Positions 14,851 through 30,373 of a stretch of 64,000 bases of DNA are shown in pieces. Numbering within the stretch: the first letter of the stretch is position 1; each line of letters opens with the position of its first letter. Below the pieces are notes generated by a model. It saw only the letters and a program-made list of their open reading frames with translations, searched no databases and was not told the DNA's origin. The position numbers and the translations under genes were made by a program. Source of the stretch: an uncultured Prevotellaceae bacterium (lineage in GTDB: Bacteria; Bacteroidota; Bacteroidia; Bacteroidales; UBA3663); NCBI GenBank assembly GCA_964567855.1, contig CAZMOE010000005.1, positions 16,150-80,149 of the forward strand, given 5' to 3'.

Positions 14851-14894
14851 GAATGCCGATTTCTTGAATTTTTAAATCATCTCTATAACAATAG

Positions 14895-14930: not shown

Positions 14931-14964
14931 TGGGTTTTAAATGATAGATACTCTTCTGAATCTA

Positions 14965-15516: not shown

Positions 15517-15574
15517 AATCGTAATGTTTAAAAGTTTATAATTAGTATATTCATATTCGTTTGTCCGGAAGGAC

Positions 15575-17782
15575 TCACGAATGAGTGACTCTGTCTTTTA
15601 ATTCTGCCAGCTTGCCGGAATTCCAGCGGTCGGTGGTACCTACCAGATAGCCGGTGATACGTTGCAGTTTGTCTAAGTTCCTGCTACCGCACTCAGGACA
15701 GATTTCTTCGTTTTCGATGGCATCTTCATGCCCGCAGTCCAGGCAACGGTTTCTGTTGTGATTGACCGATCCGTAACCGATATTGAGCTGATCCATCAAA
15801 TCTACGACCTTATAGATGGCCTCTGGGTTATGAGTCGCGTCTCCGTCGAGCTCTACATAGAAGATATGGCCTCCTCGGGTCAGGTCGTGGTATGGAGCTT
15901 CGATTTCAGCTTTGTGACGGATACTGCATTTGTAGTAAACAGGAACATGGTTGGAGTTGGTGTAATAATCCTTGTCCGTTACGCCGGGAATGATACCGAA
16001 TCTACGTTTGTCGAATTTCGTAAAGCGGCCGGAGAGTCCTTCGGCCGGAGTGGCCAGTACGGAATAATTGTGCTGGTAGCGATCGGAAAATTCGTCAGCT
16101 TTCTTTTTCATGAAGCTGACAATCTTCAGGCCGAGCCGCTGGCTGCTGTCACTTTCTCCGTGGTGCTTGCCTGTCAGTGCGATAAGGCATTCTGCCAGAC
16201 CGATGAAACCGATACCGAGTGTGCCCTGATTGATAACCGGTGCGATCGTGTCGGTTGGTTTCAGTTTGTCCGCACCATTCCATAGGCAGCTCATTACCAG
16301 CGGGAATTGCTTGGCCAAAGCTGTTTTCTGGAATTCAAAACGCTGATGTAATTGTTTGGCGACAAGTTCGCACATCTCATTCAGGCGCAGCATGAAGACT
16401 TCGACACGCTTCTCGGGATTCGGTTCCGACATACATTCGATGGCAAGGCCGACAATATTGATCGTAGTGAAAGATAAGTTGCCTCTTCCGATGGAGGTTT
16501 TGGTTCCGAAGCGATTTTCAAATACTCGAGTACGACATCCCATTGTTGCTACCTCATATTTATAACGTTCGGGATCCTCTGCATTCCAATCTTCATGATA
16601 GTTGAAGGTTGCATCCAGGTTGAGAAAGTTCGGGAAGAAGCGACGGGCCGAAACCTTGCAGGCTAACTGGTAAAGGTCGTAATTCGGATCCTCAGGCAGG
16701 TAGTTGACGCCACGTTTTTTCTTCCAGATCTGGATAGGGAAGATGGCGGTAGAATGATTGCCGACCCCTTCATAGGTGGAATGCAGGAGTTCGCGCATTA
16801 CGCAACGGCCTTCGGCGGAGGTATCGGTACCGTAGTTGACCGAAGAGAAGACGACCTGGTTACCTCCGCGGCTGTGAATCGTATTCATGTTGTGGATGAA
16901 TGCCTCCATGGCCTGATGTACGCGTGACACCGTGCGGTTGATAGCATGTTGTTTGGCGCGATCCTTTCCCTCGAGATTTCCGAGCGAGGCTTTCAGATAG
17001 TCTTTGATCGGCGTATTGTAAAGATCGGCATAATCCGCACCATCCAGTTCTTCAAGAACTCGCACCTCTTCTTTATAGGTCATGCGGACATAAGGCGCGA
17101 AATAGAAATCGAGTGCAGGGATGGCCTGACCGCCGTGCATTTCATTCTGTGCCGTTTCCAACGAGATGCAGGCCTGTACGCTGGCGGTTTCAATGCGTTT
17201 AGCCGGACGGCTTTCTGCATGAGCTGCTTTGAGACCGTGTTGCAAGATGGTATTCAGCGGATGCTGTACGCAGGTGAGCGATTTGGTTGGATAATAATCC
17301 TTATCATGGATATGGATATACCCTTTCTTGACAGCATCTTTTACATCTTCATTCAACAGATAATCATCAACGAACGGTTTTGTGCTTTCGCTGGCGAATT
17401 TCATCATCATGCCGGCCGGAGTGTCGGCGTTCATGTTGGCATTTTCGCGTGTGATATCGTTATTTTTTGCACCGATGATACTTTCAAATATTTCGCGGGT
17501 CTTGGCCTTACGGGCGATGTTGCGCGCGTTGCGATAGGAGATATAGATACGGGCCACCTCTTTACGGTCGGACTTCATCAGTTCTACTTCTACGGCATCC
17601 TGTATGGCCTCCACACTCATCAGAGCGTCCCCGCTCTTGGCGATTGTGTCGGCAATGGTCGCAGCCAATACGGCGTCGATTCCTTTTTCCGAGGCATCCA
17701 TGGCCTTACGGATAGCATCTTCAATCTTGTTGAAGTTAAAATCTACCGTACGCCCGTCGCGCTTAATTACTTTTTGAATCAT
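15575..17782 (-). CDS. nrdD: anaerobic ribonucleoside-triphosphate reductase
   Basis: 735 aa. N-terminal ATP-cone ([16 protein letters not shown]), C-terminal Zn-ribbon (CLDCGH...CPECGS) and glycyl-radical tail ([24 protein letters not shown]). Confidence 0.95.
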
Positions 17783-17867
17783 CGGTTATGTGTGTTAATA
17801 TGGTTATGTTTTTTTACGTGGATGCAAAAATAGATGCTTTTTAGTGAATAACCAAACCGATTTTGTC

Positions 17868-17875
17868 TATCTTTG
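17868..17875 (+). promoter_or_regulatory. candidate -7 box (TATCTTTG) for the LysR-family gene
   Basis: Matches TAnnTTTG 20 nt upstream of the ATG at 17896, in the 113-bp divergent nrdD/LysR intergenic region. Confidence 0.35.
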
Positions 17876-17895
17876 TATTGACAAAATCAATAATC

Positions 17896-18825
17896 ATGAC
17901 TTTTCAGCAGTTGGAATATATAGTGGCCGTCGAAAAATACCGGCATTTTGTGAATGCCGCCACCGCTTGTGGGGTTACCCAGTCTACGCTCAGCTCGATG
18001 ATACAGAAGTTGGAGCAGGAAATCGATGTGGTTATTTTCGATCGTTCCAAGCATCCCATCGAACCGACGGCGTTAGGTCGTCAGATCATCGCGCAGGCAC
18101 GTCTTATCCTGCATACTTCGTCCCAGCTTCGCGAATTGGTGCTTAGCGAGAAGGAGCAGGAGCGGGGTACGGTATATATAGGAATGTCTTCTTCGGTGGC
18201 ACCATCTCTTTATCCGTCGTTCAATCGTCTTGTCACTGCCGAGCATACCGGTATTCATGCTTGCGTCTATGAAAGTGAGACGGAAGCCTTGTTAGGGAAG
18301 TTGCAACGGGCGGAAATCGATATGGTCATAGCAAGTCCCAATGATACAGCGATTCCGGATCTGATGGAAATAGAATTATATGTCGAACGCTTCTTCTTGT
18401 ATGTATCTTCGGCCCATCCGCTTTATCAAAGAGAGTGGGTGCGTCCGGAAGATCTGATGGACGGAGATTTCTGGCTGCTCAAATCTTTCCATGGCGGTTA
18501 CCCGCAGCTTGGGGAGCTTCTCCGGCATGACACGCGCCATCACACGGATTTTGAAATGGGAAGTCTTTCCACCCTGATCAGTCTTATCGATGAGAACGGT
18601 GGCTATACGGTTTTGCCGCAGCTGTTTGTCAACCGTCTGACAGCGGAGCAGAAGAAAAATATCCGCCCGATCAATAGCGGGAAGTTCTTCCGTACGGTGT
18701 CGCTGTTTATCCGCAATGACTATGTACGTGAGCGGATGCTGAATATTATTGCGGACATTGTGAAAAGAATCGTTCCCGAAGATATGATTAACCAACGGTT
18801 GAAGAAGTTTAAGATCACATTATAA
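17896..18825 (+). CDS. LysR-family transcriptional regulator
   Basis: Track ORF 17863..18825. I prefer the ATG at 17896 (MTFQQLEYIVAVEKYRHFVNAATACGVTQSTLSSMIQKLE, a LysR wHTH), followed by a substrate-binding domain. The OxyR redox cysteines are not evident. Confidence 0.85.
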   Translation: MTFQQLEYIVAVEKYRHFVNAATACGVTQSTLSSMIQKLEQEIDVVIFDRSKHPIEPTALGRQIIAQARLILHTSSQLRELVLSEKEQERGTVYIGMSSSVAPSLYPSFNRLVTAEHTGIHACVYESETEALLGKLQRAEIDMVIASPNDTAIPDLMEIELYVERFFLYVSSAHPLYQREWVRPEDLMDGDFWLLKSFHGGYPQLGELLRHDTRHHTDFEMGSLSTLISLIDENGGYTVLPQLFVNRLTAEQKKNIRPINSGKFFRTVSLFIRNDYVRERMLNIIADIVKRIVPEDMINQRLKKFKITL

Positions 18826-18888
18826 TTCGGATGAATGTCGAGAGGATTCGTCTTGCCTGTATGAACGGTATGGCTATCATAAAGTTTT

Positions 18889-18936
18889 CCCGAAGTATTT
18901 TCTATGGAACTGAAAGATACTTCGGGGGTATTTTTA
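18889..18936 (+). terminator. rho-independent terminator after the LysR gene
   Basis: Stem cccgaagta / tacttcggg (9 bp) followed by gtattttta. Confidence 0.6.
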
Positions 18937-18949
18937 TAGGTGAAAGATT

Positions 18950-19954
18950 TTAATAATAGTTTGATAATGCCCTTATTTGGTAAAGAGCATTTTTTGAATC
19001 GTTCGAATATCCTTCTCCATTTGAGTTCCCGTAATCGAATTTTAAGTCGAACTCTATACTTTGATCTGGGGATGTCGCTTCGAATTCAGCAGAGAGTGTT
19101 TTTCGTCCTTGATATTCTTTGGTTTCCGGGGACTTTTTGATTTTTATATTGAATCCTAAATTCTGGAAGATTGAAAGCCATTCATTGTAGGAAAATTGAA
19201 AAGAAAATCCGAATTGATTTGTCCAAAGTGAGGGCATACTTTCATATCTGTTAATGGAAAGCCAGTCGAAGATCCCATCGTTTTTGGAAAAATCCCACCA
19301 GGAATGACCATTGATATCACATGTAAAATCGCCGTCTCCTTTGTCTTTTACTTCCCGGCCTAACCGCCGAGCATCGTCGAGGGTACTTGTACCAAGTGTA
19401 AGACCATCTACAGGAAAGAAGGCGTTGACATTGCGTGATGAGTTGTTTGCGAGATTGTTGGTTGTTCCGATATTGAGGCTGGTGGACTTTTGGACTTTGT
19501 CACATTCTTCAATAACATCATCACTTACATTACTGATTTGTGATCTAAGTTTGTAGAATGCGTATTTAAAAGCTTCTGCATCATTTATGTACATTTCTGC
19601 CTGGATTCTGAAACTTCCGTTCAGGCAGATAAGCTTGACTCCTTTGTATAGGTTTAATTCAGCGGAAGCCATCTTTACGGTTTCTTTGGAATATTTGGTC
19701 GGATATTCAAAAGAGCGGAACATCGTAACATACATAGGTGTGTTATCTGTTTTGCTGACAGATACATAGTAGGTTTTTCCTTCATATTTAAATTTTACAT
19801 CTCCATCAGAGTCTATTTCAGGGACAAATCCTTCTTCTTTAAGGAATTCAGAGATTTGTGTGCGCAGTTGCAGTTGACTGGCGTTATATTCATCCGCATA
19901 AGAGGCAGTTATGTAGCAAAATGCGATAATGATAAATAAAAGTATCTTTCTCAT
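18950..19954 (-). CDS. secreted/lipoprotein-like protein with a YbjN-like N-terminal domain (operon gene G)
   Basis: 334 aa. Signal peptide MRKILLFIIIAFCYITASYA. The N-terminal region (ISEFLKEEGFVPEIDSDGDVKFKYEGKTYYVSVS...) resembles the YbjN/T3SS-chaperone-like fold family. The C-terminal ~170 aa are unrecognised. The start lies 19 nt after the kinase F stop. Confidence 0.5.
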   Translation of the reverse strand: MRKILLFIIIAFCYITASYADEYNASQLQLRTQISEFLKEEGFVPEIDSDGDVKFKYEGKTYYVSVSKTDNTPMYVTMFRSFEYPTKYSKETVKMASAELNLYKGVKLICLNGSFRIQAEMYINDAEAFKYAFYKLRSQISNVSDDVIEECDKVQKSTSLNIGTTNNLANNSSRNVNAFFPVDGLTLGTSTLDDARRLGREVKDKGDGDFTCDINGHSWWDFSKNDGIFDWLSINRYESMPSLWTNQFGFSFQFSYNEWLSIFQNLGFNIKIKKSPETKEYQGRKTLSAEFEATSPDQSIEFDLKFDYGNSNGEGYSNDSKNALYQIRALSNYY

Positions 19955-19973
19955 AATGATTTTGTTTAATGGA

Positions 19974-22900
19974 TTATTTGCGGTATTTGAAGATTTCGCG
20001 GTCTTTGTTATCTTTGAGGATAACGATTAAACGCACTTCAGACGGTAAGACGCTTTTGAGTTGTTGCACGAATATGTCTGTAGCATTTTGGTAGAAAGAC
20101 ATATCCTGCTCCGAAGTTTTGTATTTCGATTCCGGAATACGAAATACCATCTCGGTCGAAGTTTTATTGAGAATGGTCCAGGATTGCAGTGTCAAATGTT
20201 TTGCATCTTCCCCCAAGTCCAAGGGTAAGTTTTTCGCAACTTCCCTTACTTCTTTTTGCCAAGAGGAAGGTTCTGTATTGGAAATGTTCTCCCAATTTTC
20301 GCCATTCCATTGTTGCCTGATGATCCGATTCCCATTTTTATCGTAACCCGATCTTTGAGAGGGATTGGAAGATGCATCATCGTATGCATAGTTCCATTTG
20401 TGGATGCCGTTTTCGGCATTTGTAGGGGATTGATTTTTCCCGAAATATGTTTCGGCGACTTTTCTGCCATATTCATCATAGGCATATGTTGCCATGAAAA
20501 CATTGTAGGCCAATGTAGGTTGTTCTTGGGTGTCGTACACGCTGTAGGATTGTATATTGTTTCTTTCATCGTATACATACTTAATGAGGTGATATTTTGA
20601 GGAAGGATTGATCATCGGTTTGTCATATTGATCGTAGTAACGGGTTTCCAATTCCTTTCCTCTTTGATTTTTTACCATTCTTATTACAGCCCATCCGGTT
20701 GCAGGGTTAATGATGAGATTTCCGTAACCGTCGCCGGCCGCGATATAGTTTATATTTCCCCATTCATCATATTGCACGAATCCTTCGGGAACATATTGAC
20801 TGATAGGGGTGGGGTTGCCATCGGTTCCATAATAAGACTGGCGTATGATACGTCCTGTAGCATCGTACTCGTTTCTGGCAATGGCATATTTATCCGTTTT
20901 TCTGCAAACCAACTTCCCTTTTGCATCGAATGTGGTAGTTTCTATGCAGTTGCCGCGGTCGTCATATTTCCATTGATAGATGGCCGCATTGTCGTTATTG
21001 ATCGGGGTGAGATTTCCGGTCAGATCGTAATATCGGACTTCAGTATCTTGACCGCGGTCATTACACGTGTATTCGGCTTGATAGTATTTTTGTTGGCAAA
21101 GGGCCGGCTTCCCTTCTGCGTTGACGCAAGAGATTTTAATCAGGTTGTCATGTTCGTCGTAGGTGTATCGGTTGTTGACCCAATAGCGGGGCAATTTCCC
21201 TTGCGCATCTGACCAATAGTTGGCGAGAACGTTCCCCCGTTCGTCATATTCCGATTTCTTTATAGCCCAGCCTTCGGAAGTATTGCAGAGTTCCCCTTGG
21301 GCGTTGACGTAACGGATTTCGAGTTGATTTCCTCTGTCATCGTATGTGGCGAACCAGCCAACGTAAGCTTCATTGACGAGATTGGTTTTTTGGCGATGAG
21401 TGTCAAAAAACTCGCGATGGGTCTCGTTACCTGTGTCATCATAATCTGATTTCCATCCAGCGATCAGTTCACTGTTTAGAACCAGGCAGTCTTCTGTTCC
21501 ATTAAAAAACTCGACCAATTCAGAGTTTCCTTGCAAGGAGTATTTGGTATGTACGCAAGGGATTTCACCATTGACAGCAGGGATTGGGTTCCCTTGGGCA
21601 TCGAAATCTTTACGGTAGATTTGCCTGCCTTGGGCATCGTATCGGTATGAGATGCTTGCGGTACCCCACGAAGTCGCGGTCAATATGTCTTCAGCATTAT
21701 AAAAGGAGACATTAATCATGTTTCCTACTTCATCGTAAGTGCTACGTTGGATAGCGAAACCTTCATTCGTCATGAAAGGATCACCGACGCTGTCGAGGTA
21801 GACGATAGTTAAGGGATACCCGTAGACGTCGTTGGTACTCTTTTGTCCGTAATATCCTTCGTTGCATGCAATCGGTTGTTTGTCTTTTCCGAAAAAGGAT
21901 ATTTCTGTTCTAAACCCGTTGGCATCATATTGGTAACGGGCACCGGTGATACCTTCGGAAGAAGAATAAGTCGGTTGATTGTCAATGCCAAAGTAGAATT
22001 GTTCGATGATAACTCCATTGGAGATGGTTTGCTCGGAGCCGGCGACATTGCAATCTCCCCGTAAGGAGAGGTTTCCATTTAGATCTTCATAAGATTGTTT
22101 GATAGTGTTACCCCATTTATCTACATAATTGCGACATACAGGAATGTTAAGATCTTTTTCCCCTGCCGGACCATAAGAGGGAGAGAGATAGGTGAACCGT
22201 ATGGGGTCATCGGCCTCATTATATTCTCGTGTGCGTATGGCCATTCCGCTTTTGGTTGCTTTGGGCTGTCCGTCATAACCGGTAAAAATCTCTTCTTTTA
22301 CGCGTCCTTTTTCATCCAAGACATATTTCCGGCCGTAAAGTCCGTCGGCGTCGCAAACGCGGGCGTTTTGGAAGCTCGCATATTTAAGTTCCGTAACGTG
22401 GCCTGCGTCATCATAGGTAAGTAGGTAACGCGAAACTTTTCCGTGTGCATCACCTTCGTCCATATTGGAGGTAAATGTCGTGACGGTTTGAGCACTTAGG
22501 TTCTTTTCGGTCCCATACTCATCGTCGTAGCGGAAAACCACGACGTTCAGGTCCTTATTGATATAGTCTTTGACCATTAAAACCTTGCCATGAGGGTCTA
22601 AAATTTTTATGTAATCAAGACTGCCGCTCTCGTTATAATAAAATTTACTGTCGGTAGGCCTTTCTATATCATCTGTAGTTGAATGTTTGATAATGCTACC
22701 CTTACTATTGATGTAAGACATGCGCAAAAGTTTGCGGCGGCAATATTCAAGACGATAGGAGGCGGTTCGGTGTGCGACTTCATCGTCAGACAGTTCATGG
22801 ATGCCCACCGGCACGCCCCATTCTTCGACATAGTCTTTGTAATAATATATCTTTGTCCGGGTATAATCCCACCAATAGATGCCAAGACCGATAACGAGAA

Positions 22901-23774
22901 TAAATGCGGCGGCAATAGAGATCTTTATCCCTTTGGGAACTTTGGGCGGATAGATAGCTATGTGAAGGGCTTTTTTAAATTCCTCGCAGCTTTGGTAACG
23001 TTCTTCCTCTTTTTTAGCTACAGCTTTGTCTACGACCTTTTGTACTTTTTCAGAGACGTATTTATAATATGTGCGTAGTCTTGGCAGCGGTTCTTCGACC
23101 ACTTTTTTGTTTATGTCTAACTCGGTCAATGTCGTGGTGTCATAAGGGGCGTTGCCCGTCAGCATCTGATGCAGGAGTACGCCGAGGGAATAGATATCGG
23201 AAGGGGTACCGAGATGCTTGCCCTGCACTTGTTCCGGGCTCATATAGGATGGAGTACCCATGATAAGGTTTTCCTCATCCTCTTCTTTCCCTTGTTTGAT
23301 GATTTTAGCGATGCCGAAATCCAGGATTTTGGGAATTCCTTCGTGAGTGATGATAATGTTGGAGGGTTTGATGTCGCGATGTAAGATGTGGTGCTTATGG
23401 GCATATCCTACAGCATCCAAAATCGGTTCGAACAGGGGGCAGATGCGGTCTTCAACAATAAGGCCGGAGACGGTTTCTATGTATTTGTCCAAACTGATAC
23501 CGTCGGCATATTCCATGATGAGATAAATATTGCCGGTTTCATCGATGTGATAGTTGATGAAATGCACGATATTCGGATGATTGAGTTCCGCCAGATGTTC
23601 TGCTTCTTCTTGCAAATGCCGACGGGTAAAGTCATTGACCATGTCGGCATTGATAACCTTGATAGCGACTTTCTGCTGTTTGATGAATTTGTGTTCTGCT
23701 AAATAGACGCTACCCATACCACCTTTGCCGATATATGAAGTGATGGTATAGTTGAGTATTTCTTTTCCGATCAT
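19974..23774 (-). CDS. Hanks-type Ser/Thr protein kinase - TM - large YD/RHS-like repeat ectodomain (operon gene F)
   Basis: 1266 aa. Kinase motifs GKGGMGSVY, VAIKVI, HRDIKPSNIII, DFGIAK and GTPSYMSPEQ. TM helix IKISIAAAFILVIGLGIYWW. About 950 aa follow, carrying about 20 YD-type motifs (YDDRGN, YDERGN, YDEHDN, YDATGR, YDEWGN, YDEYGR...). Confidence 0.85.
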   Translation of the reverse strand: MIGKEILNYTITSYIGKGGMGSVYLAEHKFIKQQKVAIKVINADMVNDFTRRHLQEEAEHLAELNHPNIVHFINYHIDETGNIYLIMEYADGISLDKYIETVSGLIVEDRICPLFEPILDAVGYAHKHHILHRDIKPSNIIITHEGIPKILDFGIAKIIKQGKEEDEENLIMGTPSYMSPEQVQGKHLGTPSDIYSLGVLLHQMLTGNAPYDTTTLTELDINKKVVEEPLPRLRTYYKYVSEKVQKVVDKAVAKKEEERYQSCEEFKKALHIAIYPPKVPKGIKISIAAAFILVIGLGIYWWDYTRTKIYYYKDYVEEWGVPVGIHELSDDEVAHRTASYRLEYCRRKLLRMSYINSKGSIIKHSTTDDIERPTDSKFYYNESGSLDYIKILDPHGKVLMVKDYINKDLNVVVFRYDDEYGTEKNLSAQTVTTFTSNMDEGDAHGKVSRYLLTYDDAGHVTELKYASFQNARVCDADGLYGRKYVLDEKGRVKEEIFTGYDGQPKATKSGMAIRTREYNEADDPIRFTYLSPSYGPAGEKDLNIPVCRNYVDKWGNTIKQSYEDLNGNLSLRGDCNVAGSEQTISNGVIIEQFYFGIDNQPTYSSSEGITGARYQYDANGFRTEISFFGKDKQPIACNEGYYGQKSTNDVYGYPLTIVYLDSVGDPFMTNEGFAIQRSTYDEVGNMINVSFYNAEDILTATSWGTASISYRYDAQGRQIYRKDFDAQGNPIPAVNGEIPCVHTKYSLQGNSELVEFFNGTEDCLVLNSELIAGWKSDYDDTGNETHREFFDTHRQKTNLVNEAYVGWFATYDDRGNQLEIRYVNAQGELCNTSEGWAIKKSEYDERGNVLANYWSDAQGKLPRYWVNNRYTYDEHDNLIKISCVNAEGKPALCQQKYYQAEYTCNDRGQDTEVRYYDLTGNLTPINNDNAAIYQWKYDDRGNCIETTTFDAKGKLVCRKTDKYAIARNEYDATGRIIRQSYYGTDGNPTPISQYVPEGFVQYDEWGNINYIAAGDGYGNLIINPATGWAVIRMVKNQRGKELETRYYDQYDKPMINPSSKYHLIKYVYDERNNIQSYSVYDTQEQPTLAYNVFMATYAYDEYGRKVAETYFGKNQSPTNAENGIHKWNYAYDDASSNPSQRSGYDKNGNRIIRQQWNGENWENISNTEPSSWQKEVREVAKNLPLDLGEDAKHLTLQSWTILNKTSTEMVFRIPESKYKTSEQDMSFYQNATDIFVQQLKSVLPSEVRLIVILKDNKDREIFKYRK

Positions 23775-23792
23775 AATTTTGTGCTTTGTGTT

Positions 23793-24314
23793 TTATAGAT
23801 TAATGAGAACAGAGACCATATTAATGGCAAATCCTACCCATGCCCAGGTGGCAATTTGAGAGGCTCGGCGGGGTGTTTCTTCTTTCATGGTGAAATACAT
23901 AATCCAACCGACCAATGGTATTAAAAATGCCAATATATTGAGACCTATCGATGGCTCATCTTTTTTTGCTGGCGTGAGAGGTACGTATGCCGGCGCCGCA
24001 GGTTGCACGGCGTGAGAAGAAGATTCACACTTTGTCTCTGCTTCGAATGGCCGGGCACTTTTAAGGGGTAACATGGCGTAGATTTGCGCCCAAGGTAGCG
24101 GGATATGATTTGCCAGCATGATGGGGGCACCGGGAGCTATCTCGATGCTGCGATTGTTGATATATTCGCCGTTTAACGTTGAGCCGTTTTTGCTTATATC
24201 TTTGTATATATAGCGTCCTCCGCTGATGCTGATCTCCGCATGAACTCGGCTGATGTTGTTGTCTGTGACGACGATGTCGCAAGAATTAGAGCGACCGATG
24301 GTAATGGATTTCAT
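23793..24314 (-). CDS. FHA domain protein with a C-terminal 2-TM hairpin (operon gene E)
   Basis: 173 aa. FHA signature (ITIGRSNSCDIVVTDNNISRVHAEI...KDISKNGSTLNG). The C-terminal IGLNILAFLIPLVGWIMYF...WAWVGFAINMVSVLINL is homologous to the C-terminus of kinase D. The start overlaps the kinase D stop (ATGA). Confidence 0.8.
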   Translation of the reverse strand: MKSITIGRSNSCDIVVTDNNISRVHAEISISGGRYIYKDISKNGSTLNGEYINNRSIEIAPGAPIMLANHIPLPWAQIYAMLPLKSARPFEAETKCESSSHAVQPAAPAYVPLTPAKKDEPSIGLNILAFLIPLVGWIMYFTMKEETPRRASQIATWAWVGFAINMVSVLINL

Positions 24315-25678
24315 GAAAATTGTAGGATAAAATTAAGTATCATGTTTATGGCAAAACCGATCCAGGCTATTTTAGCGGCTGTGTGTGCCGCTTGGGGCCT
24401 TTGTTCTTTCCAGACGCCCCAAAGCACCCATCCGACGATCGGCACAAAAAAGGACAAGATTCCCAATCCGATGCCGAGACCTGCTCGTGTCGGAGGCTGT
24501 GGGGGAGGCGGAGGTGGTAGAGTAACGGTTTGGGGCAAACGTTCTTTGAGCATTTGGATTACTGATTCCCATTCAAGCCGAATTTCCGGGCGACCTGCGA
24601 GACAAACTTCCGGCAAGGCATATTCCTGTTGCTCCGGGATAGCATAAGGAAATGACTCGGATCCGTTGTGTAGATAGCGTCCGTCGACACCCGTGCCGTT
24701 AGTACTGTGGTCTTCAATCTCAATGATGGCGCCGGTAGGACTTGTTTTCAGGTATTTATAGTGGATTTTGAGATGGTTAGAGCTTACATATTCATTGTTG
24801 ATGACGATGTCACAATCACCTCTTCCGACTGTCACTACGGCCCCGCTGACTTTTGTCTCGAGTCTTTCCGGTTCTGAAATCATTTCGTCAATGAGGGCCT
24901 GTTTGAATTTTGCTGCCGTTTGGAACCGGTTTAACATATTCTTATCGGTGGCCTTGAAGATGATGTTTTGGATTTCATCGGAAAGTTCGGGACGCAGGTC
25001 CTTGGCTCTTGGGAAATCATGATTCAAGATCTCCATCTTGGTTGCAAAGTCATTACTTTGTTTTGTGATGGCATGTTTTCCGGTGAGCATGTAGTGGAGC
25101 AGACAACCTAAGGAATAGATATCTGTCCGGTGGTCGATGCTTAATCCTTTTACTTGTTCCGGACTCATATAACCGTCGGTACCTACACACATGCCGATGG
25201 TCTGTCCGGTCGTGGTGTTCATGTCTTTGGCGATGCCAAAATCGATGACACAAATGTTGCCATCCGGTCGGATCATGATATTGGACGGTTTTATGTCGCG
25301 GTGGATTTTGTTGACGTTGTGTATATATATGAATGCGTCCAAGATTTTTCCCATCAGCTGTTTCGCCTCTTTTTCAGAATACGGCCCGTGATCTTCTACT
25401 TGCTTTTGTATGGTTTTTCCCTCCACGTATTCCATGGGTAGATAGAGGTTTCCTTTCTCGTCTGAAAAGGTCTCGCCGATAATCTTTACCACCGAGGGAT
25501 GGTTCATGCTTTTGAGGGATTTCGCTTCCGTGTCAAAGAATGCCCGGAAATTTGGAATACTTACGTATTCGCATTTCAACATCTTGATGGCTACGGAATG
25601 ACCATTGGGAGCCTTCCCTCTGTAAACGGCACCCATACCGCCCTGTCCGATTTCTTCTTCGAGAATGTAATTGTGCAT
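24311..25678 (-). CDS. Hanks-type Ser/Thr protein kinase - FHA - Pro-rich linker - 2-TM hairpin (operon gene D)
   Basis: 455 aa. Kinase motifs GQGGMGAVY, VAIKML, HRDIKPSNIMI, DFGIAKD and GTDGYMSPEQ, with a Thr-rich activation loop (NTTTGQT). FHA domain (VVTVGRGDCDIVINNEYVSSNHLKI...DHSTNGTGVDG), a PPPPPPQPP linker, then GLGILSFFVPIVGWVLWGVW...IAWIGFAINMILNFIL. Confidence 0.85.
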   Translation of the reverse strand: MHNYILEEEIGQGGMGAVYRGKAPNGHSVAIKMLKCEYVSIPNFRAFFDTEAKSLKSMNHPSVVKIIGETFSDEKGNLYLPMEYVEGKTIQKQVEDHGPYSEKEAKQLMGKILDAFIYIHNVNKIHRDIKPSNIMIRPDGNICVIDFGIAKDMNTTTGQTIGMCVGTDGYMSPEQVKGLSIDHRTDIYSLGCLLHYMLTGKHAITKQSNDFATKMEILNHDFPRAKDLRPELSDEIQNIIFKATDKNMLNRFQTAAKFKQALIDEMISEPERLETKVSGAVVTVGRGDCDIVINNEYVSSNHLKIHYKYLKTSPTGAIIEIEDHSTNGTGVDGRYLHNGSESFPYAIPEQQEYALPEVCLAGRPEIRLEWESVIQMLKERLPQTVTLPPPPPPQPPTRAGLGIGLGILSFFVPIVGWVLWGVWKEQRPQAAHTAAKIAWIGFAINMILNFILQFS

Positions 25679-25724
25679 ATTTTACTGATTTAGCATTGTT
25701 TGTACTGAAGACTTTATTCCGGAT

Positions 25725-27515
25725 TCAGACCTGAACGGTAGAAGGTGCGGATTCTTCTTTAGGGGATGTTGCAGAAGAATCAGCAGGAGCGGACTCCCCG
25801 TCGTTTTTTATTTCGTGGCTGCTGTCTCCTTCCGTCGATTTATCACTCGGAAGGGTAGTTCCTGGATTGTTTTGGGAAATGCTATCTTTTGCACTATCTA
25901 TTACTTCGGTTATCTTAGGCTTAGACTGGCCGGAATCACTTGTTTCGTGTGTTTGTTTGTCGGGAAATTGAAAGAAGAAAGTGAAGATAGTATCAGAACC
26001 ATTTATAGAAAAAACGGCAGAATCATTTTCAGGATAATCGTTTTTTTTCTTTAAAATGATTGTAGTTGTAGTACTATTCTTAGATTTGATTTCAATTTTG
26101 GGAGAGACCTTTATGATGGAGTCCTGAGCCATTTCAGATATAGATCTCTTCCATAAAGACTTGCCGGCCGGATTCTTGATTTCGATTTGGGAAGAATAGC
26201 CTGGTGTGATGGAAACTAATATTCCATTTTTATTAGCCTTTATGGAACCCAAATTTACCGGTGTGACGGGACGTTTGATGATCTCCTTATTTGCTTCATT
26301 TTTCGAATTGAAAGGGGAAACTTTGAAATGAAAAGTGCGTCTATGGCGGCCGTCTTGCAGAGTGAATGAACATTCTTCTTCTTTTTCAAGATTGACACCA
26401 TCTTTTATTTGCAAGGAAATACGATCTTCTTCCTTTTCGGTGATGGAAAGCATGTCGACATCATACAGAACGGAATCCTGATTGGCTTTAAAGCCGGCCT
26501 CATGCCAAATGAAATCGCCTGAAGAATTTTGTATGAGAGTCTCGTCTTCTCTAAAGATAATGGTACATATTTTTTTGTTTTGAGGAATGTTTATTATTCC
26601 GAAATCTTCAGTGATGGATTGAGGAGAGAGAGATTCCCAAAGGAAATAACCTCCACCACCGAGCAATAACAGCGCTAAAGCAAGGAGGCTAAACTGTAAA
26701 ATGTTTTTTTTGCGCTTGTCATCGTTCTTGGAATGTCCTCTTTTTCCGGTGGTGGTAATCGAAAATTCTACCAATTCGCAGGTGATGTTGTCTAATCCTC
26801 CGTTTTCGCGGGCCTGTTCAATCAGAGTATCGGCACGATGCTGCATATTCGTGCCGATTTTACCGGCAATTTTAGCAATGGTCGTATTCGGCACCATGTT
26901 GCTGAGCCCATCGGAGCAAAGGAGGAAAACATCGCCGGCCTGGGGGAGGATGGCCTCCTCCCTGATGGTTGCCGGTTGCATGTTGGGAATGCCTAAGGCG
27001 TTTGTGATTTCGTTTTTACGGGGATGGTGTTCCGCCTCGGCTTCACTGATCTGTCCTGCGTCGACCAAAGTCTGTACAAAAGAATGATCTTTGGTCAATT
27101 GTTTGATAGTGGATTCTCGGATCAGGTAAATGCGGCTGTCTCCCACATGGCCGATGTACACTTTGCCGTTACGCACCAATAGAAGCACGCACGTTGAACC
27201 CATTCCTGTCAGTTCGGGGTGCATTTGGGCGTGGAGCAGAATGTTTCTATTGGCTGTAAATATAGCTTCGGTGATGGCTTCATTAGGGTCCGCATGGTAA
27301 TTGTCTCGTAAGTAGGCCAATATCGAGTCGACGGCGATATGTGAGGCTGTAGCACCTCCGACATGTCCCCCCATACCGTCGCAAACTACGGCCACACGGC
27401 CGTTAGGAGTATCGTCGAACCCTAAGAAATCTTCATTGGCGGCGCGTTTACAGCCAACATCTGTCGCTCCGACGATTTGGCAATATTGGCTATAGTCCTC
27501 TAAGTTGGTTTTCAT
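25725..27515 (-). CDS. PP2C-family Ser/Thr phosphatase - TM - extracytoplasmic beta-rich region with a Ser/Asp/Glu-rich tail (operon gene C)
   Basis: 596 aa. PP2C motifs (TDVGCKRAANEDF, VVCDGMGGHVGG, LLCSDGLSN, GGLDNITC), TM helix ILQFSLLALALLLLGGGGYFLW, about 240 aa unrecognised, then a low-complexity acidic/Ser tail. Confidence 0.85.
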   Translation of the reverse strand: MKTNLEDYSQYCQIVGATDVGCKRAANEDFLGFDDTPNGRVAVVCDGMGGHVGGATASHIAVDSILAYLRDNYHADPNEAITEAIFTANRNILLHAQMHPELTGMGSTCVLLLVRNGKVYIGHVGDSRIYLIRESTIKQLTKDHSFVQTLVDAGQISEAEAEHHPRKNEITNALGIPNMQPATIREEAILPQAGDVFLLCSDGLSNMVPNTTIAKIAGKIGTNMQHRADTLIEQARENGGLDNITCELVEFSITTTGKRGHSKNDDKRKKNILQFSLLALALLLLGGGGYFLWESLSPQSITEDFGIINIPQNKKICTIIFREDETLIQNSSGDFIWHEAGFKANQDSVLYDVDMLSITEKEEDRISLQIKDGVNLEKEEECSFTLQDGRHRRTFHFKVSPFNSKNEANKEIIKRPVTPVNLGSIKANKNGILVSITPGYSSQIEIKNPAGKSLWKRSISEMAQDSIIKVSPKIEIKSKNSTTTTIILKKKNDYPENDSAVFSINGSDTIFTFFFQFPDKQTHETSDSGQSKPKITEVIDSAKDSISQNNPGTTLPSDKSTEGDSSHEIKNDGESAPADSSATSPKEESAPSTVQV

Positions 27516-27524
27516 ATAGCGAGG

Positions 27525-28094
27525 TTATAATTGGGGGATGGCAAGGAAGATGAATTTTGAGGCTCCGATGACTATGATATCATTGGTATGAATTTTGGTC
27601 TTTTCACTGACGAACGAGCCATTGATGTACACACCATTGGAGGAATTCAAATCATCGGCCCAAAAGATATTATCGCCGTTTCTGTATAAAATAAGCAGGT
27701 GTTCGGATGAAATGTGCGAATCGTTTGTGATTGGAATGTCGCAGGTATTGTTTCTTCCGATGATATTTCGTCCTTCGTATATTTTATACACTTCTCCTAA
27801 GGGAGATTGGTCGTACGAGATGAGTAATCCGACTAATTTACGTCCTCCATCGTTAGGTCCAACGGTGGTGCCGTTGAGAGTGCGGATAACGGTTCTTCCT
27901 CCTCCGACGTTTGCACCGGGGGTGGATATGGGCTTGGTGGGTATTTCTCCTGTACTGCTTTCAAAGGGGTTGTTGACTTTTGTTCTTTCTGAGTTTACTT
28001 GAGTGCTTGTCGCATTGGTAGGACAAAAGGGGCATTGATCGCCATAGATGCTTGAATCGTACTGGTGCCCGTTGGGACATTTTTTAGTTGCCAT
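27525..28094 (-). CDS. zinc-ribbon plus FHA domain protein (operon gene B)
   Basis: 189 aa. CPNGHQYDSSIYGDQCPFCP, a Thr/Ser/Pro-rich linker, then FHA (YEGRNIIGRNNTCDIPITNDSHISSEHLLI...DLNSSNGVYING). The stop is 9 nt before the PP2C start. Confidence 0.8.
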   Translation of the reverse strand: MATKKCPNGHQYDSSIYGDQCPFCPTNATSTQVNSERTKVNNPFESSTGEIPTKPISTPGANVGGGRTVIRTLNGTTVGPNDGGRKLVGLLISYDQSPLGEVYKIYEGRNIIGRNNTCDIPITNDSHISSEHLLILYRNGDNIFWADDLNSSNGVYINGSFVSEKTKIHTNDIIVIGASKFIFLAIPQL

Positions 28095-28130
28095 AAATGT
28101 TGTGGTTTAAATGATGAATGTATGATGTTT

Positions 28131-29645
28131 TTATTTGAAAAAGTCTGATGCTTTTTGCGGTTGGATAGCATGGTTATAACCTTGGGATATGCCGAGGAAT
28201 CCGGAGACAATAACTCCGGCAAAACGGCCGTGACAATCGAAAACAGGCGAGCCGCTGGCTCCTTGATGTATCGTGATATTATGCCCGTAAATGTATTCTC
28301 CTCGTTCTTGGGTGATTTCTCCGCTTTGGTTATTTGCTTCAAGTCCGATTTGGGTGCTGCCCAATGTAAAAGATTTCGGGAAACCGATGGTGTAGATTTT
28401 ATCGCCGACTTCCATATCTTCTGCATGGGCAATGTCTTTAAGGTTTACTATATGTTTTACATTGCTCGGGGTCTCTTTCGTGTTAGTTTGGATGATTGCG
28501 ATATCGACTTCTTCGTTGGAGCTGGTTTTGACAATAGAACAGCGGGTAAGATCATCTGTGCTGGAAACATGAGAATCATTTCGGCCGATACCTATCCATA
28601 GGATTTCATAATTTACTTCGACGGCATTTGCCATGGCATAATATTGATTTCTTTCCGATTTCTGTTGGCATTCATTTCCCAAGGTTATCAGTAAAGACTG
28701 GATGGCTTTTTTGATTGTTTCCGGATCTTTTCGAGCCTCTTTCCCCATTGGAGCAATAACATGTTTGTTGGTCATGATTTCTCCATGGGGTGAAATGAAA
28801 AAGCCAGTGCCGCTTGCTCCGACAACTCCGGGCGCTGCATCTCCGTCTTTGTCGATGTGGCAATAGTTGAGTTTTGAAAGTTGAGGTATGAGATCTCCGA
28901 TCGGACGGTCTTTGATTGTAACACTATAACCGGATTGTTGATAAATGAGTACCACGGAGTTTTTATACATTGCATAAATTTCGGCAGGAGTAAGTTCCTT
29001 GTTGACGTTGAACAACCATAAGAATATTCCTGTCACGACAATGGCAACGCCGGCAATGGCACTCCATGTTTTTACCTGAGGGCGCGGACGGGGAGATACC
29101 GGCGGATATATGCTTTCCCATTGGAGCGGATACTTTTGTGCCAACATGACGATGTCTCCTTTTTTGAGCGGGGCCTCTCCATGGATCCGTTGACCGTTTA
29201 CATAGGTGCCGTTAGTGGAATTACGATCGATGATGCTGATTTCGCCATTGCGTTTGCGGCAGAGAATGGCATGATGGGCCGAAACGTCGGCGATATTTTT
29301 ACAGATAATGTTGTCTGTTGCCCTTCCTATGGTTTTGGAATCTATTGTATCTGGCGTAATGCCGCTTCCTGCATTATTGTTACCGTGAACTATAGTCTTG
29401 TTGGGGGTTGATAAAGCCTGTTTCCAATCTATCACTTTGTTTCCAAGCTTTACTGTTTGTCCGGGAAGCAGTTTGGCTTCAAGAATGCGTTTCCCATCTA
29501 CGAATGTTCCATTCGTAGAGTTGAGATCTTTGATAGTTATTGAGCTTGAATCATCGATGATCAGGAGTGCATGACTTCGTGAAACGGAGTCATCGGCTAC
29601 AACAAAATCATTGGAGGAACTTTTGCCGATTTTGATGGTTTTCAT
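28131..29645 (-). CDS. FHA - FHA - TM - trypsin-like (S1/Trypsin_2-type) serine protease (operon gene A)
   Basis: 504 aa. FHA1 (IKIGKSSSNDFVVADDSVSRSHALL...DLNSTNGTFVDG), FHA2 (KTIGRATDNIICKNIADVSAHHAIL...DRNSTNGTYVNG), TM helix WSAIAGVAIVVTGIFLWLF. Putative triad His (GTGFFISPHGEIMTNKHVI), Asp (VDIAIIQT), Ser (GASGSPVFD). Confidence 0.8.
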   Translation of the reverse strand: MKTIKIGKSSSNDFVVADDSVSRSHALLIIDDSSSITIKDLNSTNGTFVDGKRILEAKLLPGQTVKLGNKVIDWKQALSTPNKTIVHGNNNAGSGITPDTIDSKTIGRATDNIICKNIADVSAHHAILCRKRNGEISIIDRNSTNGTYVNGQRIHGEAPLKKGDIVMLAQKYPLQWESIYPPVSPRPRPQVKTWSAIAGVAIVVTGIFLWLFNVNKELTPAEIYAMYKNSVVLIYQQSGYSVTIKDRPIGDLIPQLSKLNYCHIDKDGDAAPGVVGASGTGFFISPHGEIMTNKHVIAPMGKEARKDPETIKKAIQSLLITLGNECQQKSERNQYYAMANAVEVNYEILWIGIGRNDSHVSSTDDLTRCSIVKTSSNEEVDIAIIQTNTKETPSNVKHIVNLKDIAHAEDMEVGDKIYTIGFPKSFTLGSTQIGLEANNQSGEITQERGEYIYGHNITIHQGASGSPVFDCHGRFAGVIVSGFLGISQGYNHAIQPQKASDFFK

Positions 29646-30373
29646 AGTGTTTGCGGGTGGACCGACTGTTTTGTTAAGGCTGCTTGAAACCCGTTGAATG
29701 AGTTTTGTTTCACAGGAGCCGTTGATAGCCTATAGTTCCCCCGATTCGGCAAAATAAAATCAAGAATACCTTATTAAAAAGAAAAAGCGTGGGAAACTCT
29801 TCTTGCTTACCCCGCTTTTTCAGGCCTTTGCACTTGCCCACTTATCCGGATAAGCAACGCCGTTAGCCCACGCTGATGTATAGTATTATCCCCTCACTAT
29901 CTACGGACATTAATCATGCCCATAGATAGATATTGGGATGTGAATACGTCACATCTCGCCGACATTTCGTTGCTGTTTTTCTTTGGGGATAAGTTTTCAA
30001 ATGTGCAAAGTTTGAAAAAGACCAAAGCAAACGTCGAAAACGTCTTTCTTTTAAATAAAGACCACCACCCCTGTACACTTTCCAATGAAAATTGGTATCC
30101 AACAAGTTTCCCCTTGGGGCTAACAGGCGTTAAATGGTTGGGCAAATATATGGATTTTATCATTATATCATCTTGCTTTATGTGAAATTTTGTAATATTA
30201 AGTGCCTTTTTTGTTCCATTTTCCTGTTGAAAGCGTTAATTCCTTTCTTTATTAAAGGAATTAATCTGTTCAGTAGAGATTAATGAAAGTTTTAATGATA
30301 AAAACAAAGCAGAAAGAAGAAAAGATGGTCTGTGGTACTTTTTTTACAGAATGGTATTCGAAATATGAACGGC

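What the first reader, a model, noticed from the sequence alone, without database searches (positions are those of the whole stretch)
23793..25678. Kinase-FHA-2TM protein and its translationally coupled kinase-less paralogue share a distinctive C-terminal membrane hairpin
Seen: D ends with GLGILSFFVPIVGWVLWGVWKEQRPQAAHTAAKIAWIGFAINMILNFILQFS. E ends with IGLNILAFLIPLVGWIMYFTMKEETPRRASQIATWAWVGFAINMVSVLINL. These clearly align as two helices joined by a short basic loop.

Both proteins have an FHA domain upstream of the hairpin, so E looks like D without its kinase. The D stop and E start overlap (ATGA), implying coupled translation at near-equal stoichiometry. D has a Thr-rich activation loop (DFGIAKDMNTTTGQTIGMCVGTDGYMSPE), which offers obvious autophosphorylation and FHA-docking sites.

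Inference: D and E could hetero-oligomerise through the hairpin. E would then act as an adaptor, decoy or substrate for D.
Basis: partly seen in the sequence, partly recalled or inferred. Interest (0 to 1): 0.6.

Follow-up and report, generated by a model that had tools for sequence, protein, structure and literature searches.

The report
Shared membrane hairpin on kinase/FHA pair
Two neighbouring genes in a gut Bacteroidales signalling operon, a protein kinase and a small phospho-threonine reader, really do end in the same 55-residue membrane hairpin, which is a widespread but unnamed anchor module and not a private docking device for this pair.

Summary
D (24311-25678, -) is an intact Hanks kinase + FHA + C-terminal helical hairpin. 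E (23793-24314, -) is FHA + the same hairpin. The hairpins are 50% identical over 44 aa (E 1e-16; z 14-22 against shuffles), and the genes overlap by ATGA.

The hairpin has no Pfam or NCBIfam model of its own. Its nearest named family is PLDc_N, which matches helix 1 only. It is nevertheless a large family: 3,729 clusters at 50% identity, mostly small zinc-ribbon-hairpin proteins.

D-E sit in a seven-gene operon conserved across Bacteroidales. D lies directly upstream of E in 27 of 27 loci, with the ATGA overlap in 17 of 28.

- E's FHA is not specifically D-like.
- D's hairpin is replaced by a single TM helix or a different 2-TM anchor in 8 of 28 operons.
- Two operons lack E, and in one the kinase is fused directly to an E-type FHA-hairpin.

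Most likely the hairpin is a membrane tether that keeps a sensor-less kinase and an FHA adaptor/substrate close together. E carries a conserved linker Thr94 (27 of 30 orthologues), a candidate phosphosite. Hairpin-mediated D-E pairing remains untested, and so does the hairpin's membrane topology. The scan has not noted this hairpin on other DNA.

The parts
24311..25678 (-). Gene D: Hanks Ser/Thr kinase - FHA - poly-Pro linker - C-terminal hairpin (455 aa)
   Evidence: ORF. Pfam Pkinase 176 bits and FHA 35 bits. Catalytic residues are invariant in 17 orthologues. AF2 mean pLDDT 82.
24917..25666 (-). D kinase domain (residues 5-254). The activation loop D146-E174 has invariant T160 and T167.
   Evidence: Loop residues 150-157 are disordered in the AF2 model.
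24551..24862 (-). D FHA domain (residues about 273-376), fast-evolving. The canonical Gly-Arg arginine is present here but lost in 5/17 orthologues.
24314..24484 (-). D hairpin (residues 399-455): helix 403-423 with P413..G416, turn KEQR, helix 428-454
24311..24314 (-). ATGA overlap of the D stop (TGA) and the E start (ATG)
   Evidence: The same overlap occurs in 17/28 operons examined.
23793..24314 (-). Gene E: FHA - disordered linker - C-terminal hairpin (173 aa)
24069..24314 (-). E FHA domain (residues 1-82). G7-R8, S22-R23, H25 and G44 are invariant and N43 is conserved in at least 90% of sequences. The C-terminal PLPWAQIY helix is also conserved.
   Evidence: Pfam 58 bits. Invariant columns. 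pLDDT 93-96. Foldseek matches EmbR, Rad53 FHA1, OdhI/GarA and FhaA.
24033..24035 (-). Codon of E Thr94, in the motif P-[YF]-E-x-[ED]-T-x-[YV]-[EQ]-P within the otherwise variable linker. Candidate phospho-acceptor and FHA-docking site.
   Evidence: Thr in 27/30 E orthologues. The surrounding segment has low pLDDT.
23796..23960 (-). E hairpin (residues 119-173): helix 122-143 with P133..G136, turn KEET, helix 148-172
18950..29645 (-). The enclosing seven-gene operon: A (FHA-FHA-TM-trypsin-like protease), B (Zn-ribbon-FHA), C (PP2C-TM), D, E, F (kinase-TM-RHS/YD repeats), G (unknown, about 330 aa)
   Evidence: The same gene order is seen in about 30 Bacteroidales loci.

Best explanation
D and E are two cytoplasm-facing, membrane-tethered components of a conserved Bacteroidales Ser/Thr phospho-signalling operon.

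The tether is an approximately 55-residue C-terminal helical hairpin. Its signature is G-x-x-I-L-[SA]-F-x-x-P-[IL]-[VA]-G-[WL]-I-[LM]-[YW], then a basic turn [KR]-x-x-[T]-P-x-[KR]-A, then an Ala/Gly-rich second helix. This is an unnamed module that is widespread in bacteria, most often attached to a small zinc ribbon.

D is a catalytically intact Hanks kinase with no ectodomain, so it cannot sense anything outside the cell itself. I infer that its FHA domain recruits it to phospho-threonine sites on partners, such as the receptor kinase F or other D molecules. This would resemble how the FHA-kinases Rad53 and Chk2 are recruited.

E is a kinase-less reader with a fully canonical pThr pocket. 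It also carries a conserved Thr (T94) in its disordered linker. I infer that E is both a substrate of D or F and an adaptor, comparable to FhaB/FipA or GarA/OdhI in actinobacteria.

The shared hairpin confines both proteins to the membrane plane next to the single-pass proteins A, C and F, and the ATGA overlap couples their synthesis.

Shown here: the domain make-up, hairpin homology, family size, synteny, overlap frequency, residue conservation, and the fusion and replacement variants.

Inferred, not shown: who phosphorylates whom, what the FHA domains bind, and whether the hairpins contact each other.
For: - Hairpin homology.
- The hairpin is a generic module. There are 3,729 clusters at E<=1e-3. 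Of the top 148 hits, 77 carry Zn_Ribbon_1, 19 carry FHA and 5 carry Pkinase. The hairpin is C-terminal in 121 of 142.
- No dedicated Pfam or NCBIfam model exists.
- Operon order A-B-C-D-E-F(-G) is kept in about 30 loci from Bacteroides, Phocaeicola, Mediterranea, Paraprevotella, Prevotellaceae, Muribaculaceae, Tannerella, Paludibacteraceae and Microbacter.
- D lies directly upstream of E in 27/27 loci, with the ATGA overlap in 17/28.
- The kinase is fused directly to an E-type FHA-hairpin in a Draconibacterium MAG (L039) and in P0097.
- D's catalytic residues and T160/T167 are invariant.
- E's FHA pThr residues are invariant, and its fold matches EmbR, Rad53, OdhI and FhaA.
- E's T94 is conserved in 27/30 orthologues.
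- D's anchor is interchangeable with a single TM helix in 6 operons. This fits a tethering role.
Against: - No experiment or multimer model bears on any interaction.
- E's hairpin is never replaced in the 30 orthologues examined, while D's is replaced in 8 of 28. Every operon seen keeps at least one FHA-hairpin unit. This hints at a role beyond simple anchoring, though relatives are not independent and the numbers are small.
- Hairpin topology is unsettled. Over 196 family members the turn carries about 3.7 Lys/Arg per sequence, while the N-flank is net acidic. That is the opposite of what the positive-inside rule predicts for an N-in, loop-out hairpin.
- D's FHA has lost the canonical Arg in 5/17 orthologues, so its role as a pThr reader may not be general.
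Confidence: 0.65

Rival explanations
1. One reading: the two hairpins pair specifically in the membrane to form D-E hetero-oligomers. E would then be a stoichiometric adaptor, decoy or substrate held on D by helix-helix contacts.
For: - D-type and E-type hairpins are two separately conserved orthologous groups (support 80 and 92 in a weakly resolved tree).
- Helix 2 carries a small-residue face (A37, A40/41, A44, G47 in family numbering), the kind of surface that packs TM helices.
- Hairpin genes recur as adjacent paralogue pairs in unrelated contexts: L014, L017, L048, L060.
- The ATGA overlap occurs in 17/28 operons.
Against: - D's hairpin is replaced by a plain single TM helix in L021, L035, L038, L040, L045 and L047. 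It is replaced by a different 2-TM anchor in L037 and L044. E keeps its hairpin in all eight loci, and the ATGA overlap is kept in four of them: L038, L040, L045 and L047.
- Operons L259 and L261 have a D hairpin but no E.
- Most hairpin proteins elsewhere are single genes.
Confidence: 0.22
2. E is a GarA/OdhI-type phospho-switch. Phosphorylation of its conserved linker Thr94 creates a ligand for an FHA domain, either its own or one in D, A or B. This toggles which partner E holds at the membrane.
For: - T94 is conserved in 27/30 orthologues, in an acidic motif within an otherwise variable, low-pLDDT linker.
- E's FHA pocket is canonical.
- Structural matches include OdhI and GarA, among them the PknB-GarA complex entry.
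- The operon encodes five FHA domains, two kinases and one PP2C.
Against: - T94 lies only about 12 residues after the FHA domain, which may be too short for binding in cis.
- E scores 24 bits against the OdhI NCBIfam model, whose cut-off is 200, so it is not a member of that family.
- There are no phosphorylation data.
Confidence: 0.25
3. The hairpin is an effector and not an anchor. It would be a small membrane-perturbing or pore-forming module, as in 2-TM effectors of conflict systems, released or assembled under kinase control. The operon would then be a mobile defence or conflict island.
For: - Distribution is patchy. The hairpin profile hit only 14/401 genomes sampled across the order, and none of 3 same-genus genomes.
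- The region at 12-30 kb has lower GC (0.41-0.46) than most of the flanking sequence, which reaches 0.52-0.57.
- Flanking genes differ between taxa, for example a HepT/MNT pair in B. finegoldii.
- 6/148 relatives weakly match the TRADD-N-associated 2-TM domain.
- A hairpin gene sits in a PP2C-kinase-vWA cluster in Christensenella.
Against: - PADLOC gives only generic kinase and protease domain hits.
- Hairpin proteins also sit in housekeeping neighbourhoods, next to rpoA-rplQ.
- Only 1 of 14 distinct non-operon hairpin loci has a kinase nearby.
- No nuclease, NTPase or other typical defence component is present.
Confidence: 0.06
4. The hairpin resemblance is a chance product of two hydrophobic tails.
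For: None beyond the general tendency of TM segments to align.
Against: - BLASTP E 1e-16 with composition adjustment.
- z = 14.6 against shuffles that preserve the helix/loop blocks.
- P19 is invariant, G22 and A37 are each in 195 of 196 sequences, and P34 is in 96%.
Confidence: 0.01

Closest known systems
M. tuberculosis FhaB/FipA (Rv0019c) and FhaA in the fhaA-fhaB-pstP-rodA-pbpA-pknA-pknB operon (my own knowledge; NCBIfam NF049868 was used for the test)
   Same: A small membrane-anchored protein with a single FHA domain, encoded beside Hanks kinases and a PP2C phosphatase. FipA is itself a kinase substrate and a pThr-dependent adaptor.
   Different: E scores 37.9 bits against NF049868, whose cut-off is 125, so it is not a member. 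E's anchor is a C-terminal hairpin and not FipA's membrane segment. The operon has no RodA/PBP genes and instead carries a protease, a Zn-ribbon-FHA protein and an RHS-repeat receptor kinase.
Rad53 / Chk2 FHA-kinases (PDB 5xzv, 3i6w appear among the fold matches)
   Same: FHA and Ser/Thr kinase in one polypeptide. The FHA domain recruits the kinase to phosphorylated partners and promotes trans-autophosphorylation.
   Different: In D the FHA domain follows the kinase, and the protein is membrane-tethered. It is bacterial, and there is no SQ/TQ cluster domain.
GarA / OdhI (NCBIfam NF041660; PDB 4qcj, 6i2p)
   Same: A small FHA protein with a conserved acidic Thr motif outside the domain that a Hanks kinase phosphorylates.
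   Different: E scores 24.2 bits against a cut-off of 200. E's motif lies C-terminal to the FHA domain and close to it. E is membrane-bound, and no metabolic enzyme partner is evident.
Pfam PLDc_N (PF13396), the N-terminal 2-TM hairpin of cardiolipin synthases and of small stand-alone proteins
   Same: A hydrophobic helix carrying P-x-x-G-x-x-x-[YW] followed by a basic residue. 36/148 close relatives of the hairpin hit this model at E<=0.01 (best E 1.1e-6; one relative, P0026, scores 24.5 bits, above the 23.3-bit cut-off). hhalign gives 77.5% probability.
   Different: Only helix 1 aligns, and it aligns to the second helix of PLDc_N, so the order of elements differs. D and E themselves score 11.6 and 10.2 bits against a cut-off of 23.3. 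The turn K-x-x-T-P-x-K-A and the second helix have no counterpart.
CD225 / dispanin (IFITM) family, PF04505
   Same: A short two-helix membrane module often fused after a zinc ribbon, for example in locus L062. It has a Pro-Gly-containing first helix, a basic loop and a W-x-x-G second helix. The IFITM topology (re-entrant helix 1, cytoplasmic basic loop, C-terminus out) would resolve the charge paradox of this hairpin.
   Different: There is no HMM hit. hhalign gives only 52% probability, over helix 2 only. The CD225 loop is about twice as long, and its Cys-Cys motif is absent.

Membership tests
FHA domain (PF00498) | Score above the Pfam gathering cut-off (20.7 bits) | tested here: met
   D 35.2 bits, E 58.2 bits.
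FHA domain (PF00498) | Canonical pThr-binding residues: Gly-Arg, Ser-x-x-His and Asn-Gly | tested here: met
   In E, G7, R8, S22, R23, H25 and G44 are invariant in 16 sequences, and N43 is conserved in at least 90%. In the window's D all are present. However, the Arg is lost in 5/17 D orthologues, while S299 and H302 are invariant and N327 is conserved in at least 90%.
Hanks-type Ser/Thr kinase (PF00069) | Score above the cut-off, plus the catalytic Lys (VAIK), HRD Asp, Asn, DFG Asp and the SPE motif | tested here: met
   176 bits against a cut-off of 31.7. K32, H126-R127-D128, N133, D146-F147-G148 and S172-P173-E174 are invariant in 17 orthologues.
PLDc_N (PF13396) | Score above the gathering cut-off (23.3 bits) over the 42-position model | tested here: not met
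   D scores 11.6 bits (E 0.29) and E scores 10.2 bits (E 0.75), matching model positions 24-40 only. Some relatives do pass, for example P0026 at 24.5 bits.
PLDc_N (PF13396) | Same arrangement: helix 1, loop, then the P-x-x-G helix as the second helix | tested here: not met
   In D, E and all 196 aligned hairpins the P-x-x-G helix comes first. hhalign aligns it to template columns 33-59 of 64, which is the second helix.
CD225 / dispanin (PF04505) | HMM match, or a profile-profile match over both helices | tested here: not met
   CD225 is not among the Pfam hits for D, E or the listed relatives. hhalign against 18 Bacteroidales CD225 domains gives 52% probability over 28 columns, helix 2 only.
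FhaB/FipA (NCBIfam NF049868) | Score above the curated cut-off (125 bits) | tested here: not met
   E scores 37.9 bits and D scores 23.8 bits.
OdhI/GarA (NCBIfam NF041660) | Score above the curated cut-off (200 bits) | tested here: not met
   E scores 24.2 bits.
Known anti-phage defence systems (PADLOC-DB 2.0) | A system-specific protein match beyond a shared generic domain | tested here: not met
   D and F hit PD-T4-6 and mad6 over the kinase domain only. A hits protease domains. B, E and G hit nothing.
2-TM hairpin with N-in / loop-out / C-in topology | Both helices span the membrane and the loop is periplasmic | not testable with these tools
   AF2 gives two helices of at least 21 residues. 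However, charge statistics favour a cytoplasmic loop, and 7 relatives carry a sizeable domain after helix 2. This needs PhoA/GFP fusions or Cys accessibility mapping.

The most novel reading that the evidence does not exclude
The hairpin is not a plain 2-TM anchor. It would instead be an IFITM/CD225-like module: a Pro-kinked re-entrant first helix, a cytoplasmic basic loop carrying the near-universal [T]-P-x-[KR]-A motif, and a single true TM helix with the C-terminus outside.

On this reading, D-type and E-type hairpins co-assemble into a defined membrane oligomer. Its state would be set by phosphorylation of the loop or of E-T94 and read by the operon's five FHA domains. The hairpin would then be the regulated output, or the scaffold, of this operon, which otherwise has no recognisable output.
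Probability: 0.1. Interest if true: 0.75.

Novelty: new variant of a known kind. Interest (0 to 1): 0.4.

Why it matters
Ser/Thr kinase, PP2C and FHA circuits are well studied in actinobacteria and firmicutes but hardly at all in Bacteroidales, which are dominant gut bacteria. This pair gives a concrete and testable sub-circuit: a sensor-less, membrane-tethered FHA-kinase and a tethered FHA adaptor with one conserved candidate phosphosite. It lies in an operon present in cultivable Bacteroides finegoldii.

Separately, the hairpin is a very common small membrane module that no domain library names. There are at least 3,700 sequence clusters, mostly zinc-ribbon proteins of unknown function. Defining its topology and whether it oligomerises would annotate thousands of small proteins.

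Tried and rejected
- **Named-family check.** Pfam and NCBIfam scans of the isolated hairpins found nothing significant. A PDB sequence-profile search gave only noise at E>0.2. Foldseek of the E model matched the FHA domain only.
- **Reverse co-occurrence test.** Seeding search for related loci with the D alignment was swamped by generic kinases. Only one true D locus appeared among 80. I used the search for homologous proteins on D's C-terminal part instead.
- **Topology from C-terminal extensions.** Tails of seven longer relatives gave only sub-threshold matches: DUF1307 at E 9e-4, an Ig-like domain at E 0.07, and an enterococcal WxL-associated protein at E 0.02. This is not decisive.
- **Defence-system reading.** PADLOC gave generic domain hits only.
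- **General link between the hairpin and kinases.** Only the Christensenella locus among 14 distinct non-operon hairpin loci has a kinase nearby. I rejected this as a general rule.
- **Literature.** Searches for PLDc_N/PF13396 returned unrelated Leishmania plasmid papers. Searches combining FHA, Bacteroides, Hanks and PP2C found only general reviews. The eLife 2020 conflict-systems paper (PMC7159879) describes kinase-PP2C-vWA triads but not this hairpin or operon.
- **Hairpin tree.** 59 columns are too few to say whether D and E hairpins are each other's closest relatives.
Full report
**1. What is there**

On the minus strand of the window, seven tightly packed ORFs form one cluster. Pfam assigns the following:
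- A, 29645-28131: FHA-FHA-TM-trypsin-like protease.
- B, 28094-27525: FHA at the C-terminus. Orthologues show a zinc ribbon at the N-terminus.
- C, 27515-25725: PP2C phosphatase.
- D, 25678-24311: Pkinase (176 bits, residues 5-254) and FHA (35 bits).
- E, 24314-23793: FHA (58 bits).
- F, 23774-19974: Pkinase plus RHS repeats.
- G, 19954-18950: no significant family.

The D stop codon and E start codon overlap as ATGA at 24311-24314.

**2. Is the hairpin similarity real?**

- BLASTP of the two tails gives 50% identity and 73% positives over 44 ungapped residues, E 1e-16.
- The local alignment score is 132. Whole-sequence shuffles give 24.6 +/- 4.7. Shuffles confined to helix 1, loop and helix 2 give 29.1 +/- 7.0. 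None of 5000 shuffles reached the observed score in either test.
- These are the only two copies in the 2.75-Mb assembly.
- AlphaFold2 with orthologue alignments models both tails as tight helix-turn-helix hairpins. In E the helices are 122-143 and 148-172, with pLDDT about 84. In D they are 403-423, broken at the conserved Pro, and 428-454. In both proteins a disordered linker precedes the hairpin.

**3. Is it a named family?**

Neither hairpin reaches any Pfam or NCBIfam model. The best hit is PLDc_N, at E 0.29 for D and 0.75 for E.

I built a profile from 14 hairpins taken from the window and fetched loci (A2) and searched 1.84 billion representative proteins. It found 3,729 proteins at E<=1e-3 and 855 at E<=1e-10.

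Among the top 148 hits:
- 77 carry Zn_Ribbon_1.
- 36 weakly match PLDc_N (best E 1.1e-6; one is above the cut-off).
- 19 carry FHA.
- 5 carry Pkinase.

The hairpin is C-terminal in 121 of 142 hits.

Profile-profile comparison gives 77.5% probability to PLDc_N, but only over helix 1, which aligns to the second helix of that family. It gives 52% to CD225, only over helix 2. There is no relative of known structure.

So the hairpin is a large, real, unnamed family that shares half-motifs with two named hairpin families. Its signature over 196 sequences is as follows (family alignment numbering):

| Position | Residue | Conservation |
|---|---|---|
| 19 | Pro | 100% |
| 22 | Gly | 99.5% |
| 30 | Lys/Arg | 85% |
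| 34 | Pro | 96% |
| 36 | Lys/Arg | 82% |
| 37 | Ala | 99.5% |
| 47 | Gly | 83% |
| 48 | Phe | 79% |

**4. Co-occurrence**

Searching with E and its relatives recovered about 28 full-length loci. They come from Bacteroides, Phocaeicola, Mediterranea, Paraprevotella, Prevotellaceae, Muribaculaceae, Tannerella, Paludibacteraceae, Microbacter and Draconibacterium MAGs or isolates. All have the order A-B-C-D-E-F, usually followed by G, though G sometimes precedes F.

D lies directly upstream of E in all 27 loci that have upstream sequence. The junctions across the 27 loci plus the window are:

| D stop to E start | Operons |
|---|---|
| 4-nt ATGA overlap | 17 |
| 1-nt overlap | 1 |
| Gap of 1-23 nt | 7 |
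| Gap of 43-207 nt | 3 |

Flanking genes differ between taxa. A hairpin-profile scan of 401 genomes sampled across the order found the D/E pair only in the window's own genome and not in 3 genomes of the same genus. The operon is therefore patchily distributed. The window's organism is an uncultured gut or rumen Bacteroidales; its NrdD is 93% identical to that of an uncultured Prevotellaceae MAG.

**5. Variants that bear on the interpretation**

(a) In 8 of 28 operons D lacks this hairpin.
- Six end in a single hydrophobic helix: L021, L035, L038, L040, L045, L047.
- Two end in a different 2-TM segment: L037, L044.
- E keeps its hairpin in all eight, and four of them keep the ATGA overlap.

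(b) Seeding from D's C-terminal part found two operons with a D hairpin but no E.
- L259 has gene order A-B-C-D-F-G.
- L261 also has an in-frame stop in D and split A and F genes, so it may be decaying or poorly assembled.
- Two other loci found this way, L260 and L262, do have E.

(c) In the Draconibacterium MAG (L039) the kinase is fused directly to an E-type FHA-hairpin. The residues MRTITIGR of the E start are retained in frame, and there is no separate E gene. Its FHA falls inside the E clade with support 98. P0097 has the same architecture. This is Rosetta-stone evidence that D's kinase and E's FHA-hairpin work together.

(d) Every operon seen keeps at least one FHA-hairpin unit, and E's hairpin is never replaced. 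The numbers are small and the genomes are related, so I treat this as a lead and not a result.

**6. Is E 'D without its kinase'?**

- Within the window, E's FHA is closest to A's first FHA (38% identity, E 2e-13). It is less similar to D's FHA (29%, E 8e-8).
- In a tree of 79 FHA domains from 16 operons, A1, A2, B, D and E each form one group. The D, E and A1+A2 groups join in an unresolved trichotomy.
- D's FHA evolves fast, with terminal branches of 0.5-1.6. It has lost the canonical Arg in 5/17 orthologues.
- E's FHA is slow-evolving, and its pThr-binding residues are conserved: G7, R8, S22, R23, H25 and G44 are invariant and N43 is conserved in at least 90%.

Both proteins share the FHA-plus-hairpin design. 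A simple origin of E by truncation of D is neither shown nor excluded.

**7. Features relevant to mechanism**

- D's catalytic residues are invariant. So are two activation-loop threonines, T160 and T167.
- D has no ectodomain, so it cannot be the sensor. F, with about 950 extracytoplasmic residues, is the obvious candidate.
- E's linker is variable and predicted to be disordered, except for the motif P-[YF]-E-x-[ED]-T-x-[YV]-[EQ]-P. Its Thr (T94) is present in 27/30 orthologues.
- An acidic Thr motif next to an FHA domain recalls the GarA/OdhI switch. E's fold matches include OdhI, GarA, EmbR, FhaA and Rad53 FHA1.

**8. An unresolved oddity: membrane topology**

Across the family the N-flank of the hairpin is net acidic (Asp at 90% of one position). 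The turn carries about 3.7 Lys/Arg per sequence. For a hairpin whose N-terminal domain must be cytoplasmic, as a kinase, FHA domain or zinc ribbon must be, the positive-inside rule would place the turn in the cytoplasm too. That is impossible if both helices span the membrane.

Seven relatives also carry a domain of 100-230 residues after helix 2. These domains could not be identified securely.

An IFITM-like arrangement would reconcile these facts: helix 1 re-entrant, the loop cytoplasmic and the C-terminus outside. This cannot be tested with the tools available.

**9. Verdict**

D and E are a conserved, often translationally coupled functional pair, and E is a credible adaptor or substrate. 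However, the hairpin is a generic, widespread module that can be exchanged on D, and E is dispensable in some operons. Obligatory hairpin-to-hairpin docking is therefore unlikely to be the core of the mechanism.

The best reading is co-tethering of a sensor-less FHA-kinase and an FHA adaptor at the membrane, within a multi-FHA phospho-relay. The finding is a new architectural variant of known kinase/FHA signalling, and it brings with it an undescribed small-protein membrane module.

Noticed in passing
window 24033-24035 (E Thr94): A single conserved Thr (27/30 orthologues) sits in an acidic motif P-[YF]-E-x-[ED]-T-x-[YV]-[EQ]-P within E's otherwise variable, disordered linker. It is a candidate phosphosite.
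   Followed up: partly
L039:6164-7540 (Draconibacterium orientale MAG) and protein P0097: The kinase is fused in frame to an E-type FHA-hairpin, and there is no separate E gene. This is a Rosetta-stone fusion.
   Followed up: yes
L259:4077-9250 and L261:4723-6200: These operon variants have a D-type hairpin but no E gene. L261 also has an in-frame stop inside D and split A and F genes, suggesting decay or assembly errors.
   Followed up: partly
L021, L035, L038, L040, L045, L047 (D orthologues); L037, L044: D's hairpin is replaced by a single C-terminal hydrophobic helix in six loci and by a different 2-TM segment with a long basic loop in two.
   Followed up: yes
window 24551-24862 and D orthologues (alignment A5): D's FHA has lost the canonical Gly-Arg arginine in 5/17 orthologues and evolves much faster than E's FHA. 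It may be a degenerate or regulatory FHA.
   Followed up: partly
window, the FHA domains of A (both), D and E: Each of these FHA domains is followed by a short helix with a hydrophobic-x-W-x-x-[IV] motif: VIDWKQAL, PLQWESIY, RLEWESVI, PLPWAQIY. This suggests one ancestral FHA type expanded within the operon.
   Followed up: no
L007:4761-8183 (Christensenella sp. MAG): A tightly packed four-gene cluster encodes PP2C, a divergent kinase, vWA and a zinc-ribbon-hairpin protein. This is a second, independent pairing of the hairpin with kinase/phosphatase genes, and it resembles the kinase-PP2C-vWA triads of PMC7159879.
   Followed up: partly
L014:5302-6001, L017:5590-6294, L048:6953-7747, L060:6617-7580: Zinc-ribbon-hairpin genes recur as adjacent paralogue pairs. 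In two loci they lie just downstream of rpoA-rplQ.
   Followed up: partly
protein P0027 (192 aa): One relative carries three tandem copies of the P-x-x-G helix plus basic-turn unit after a zinc ribbon.
   Followed up: no
proteins P0053, P0072, P0094, P0108, P0140, P0142, P0160: In these relatives the hairpin is followed by an acidic linker and an unidentified beta-rich domain of 100-230 aa. If that domain is extracytoplasmic, the hairpin crosses the membrane an odd number of times.
   Followed up: partly
window 12001-30000: GC content here is 0.41-0.48, against 0.52-0.57 in most of the flanking sequence. The operon lies in this lower-GC stretch, and its flanking genes differ between taxa.
   Followed up: no
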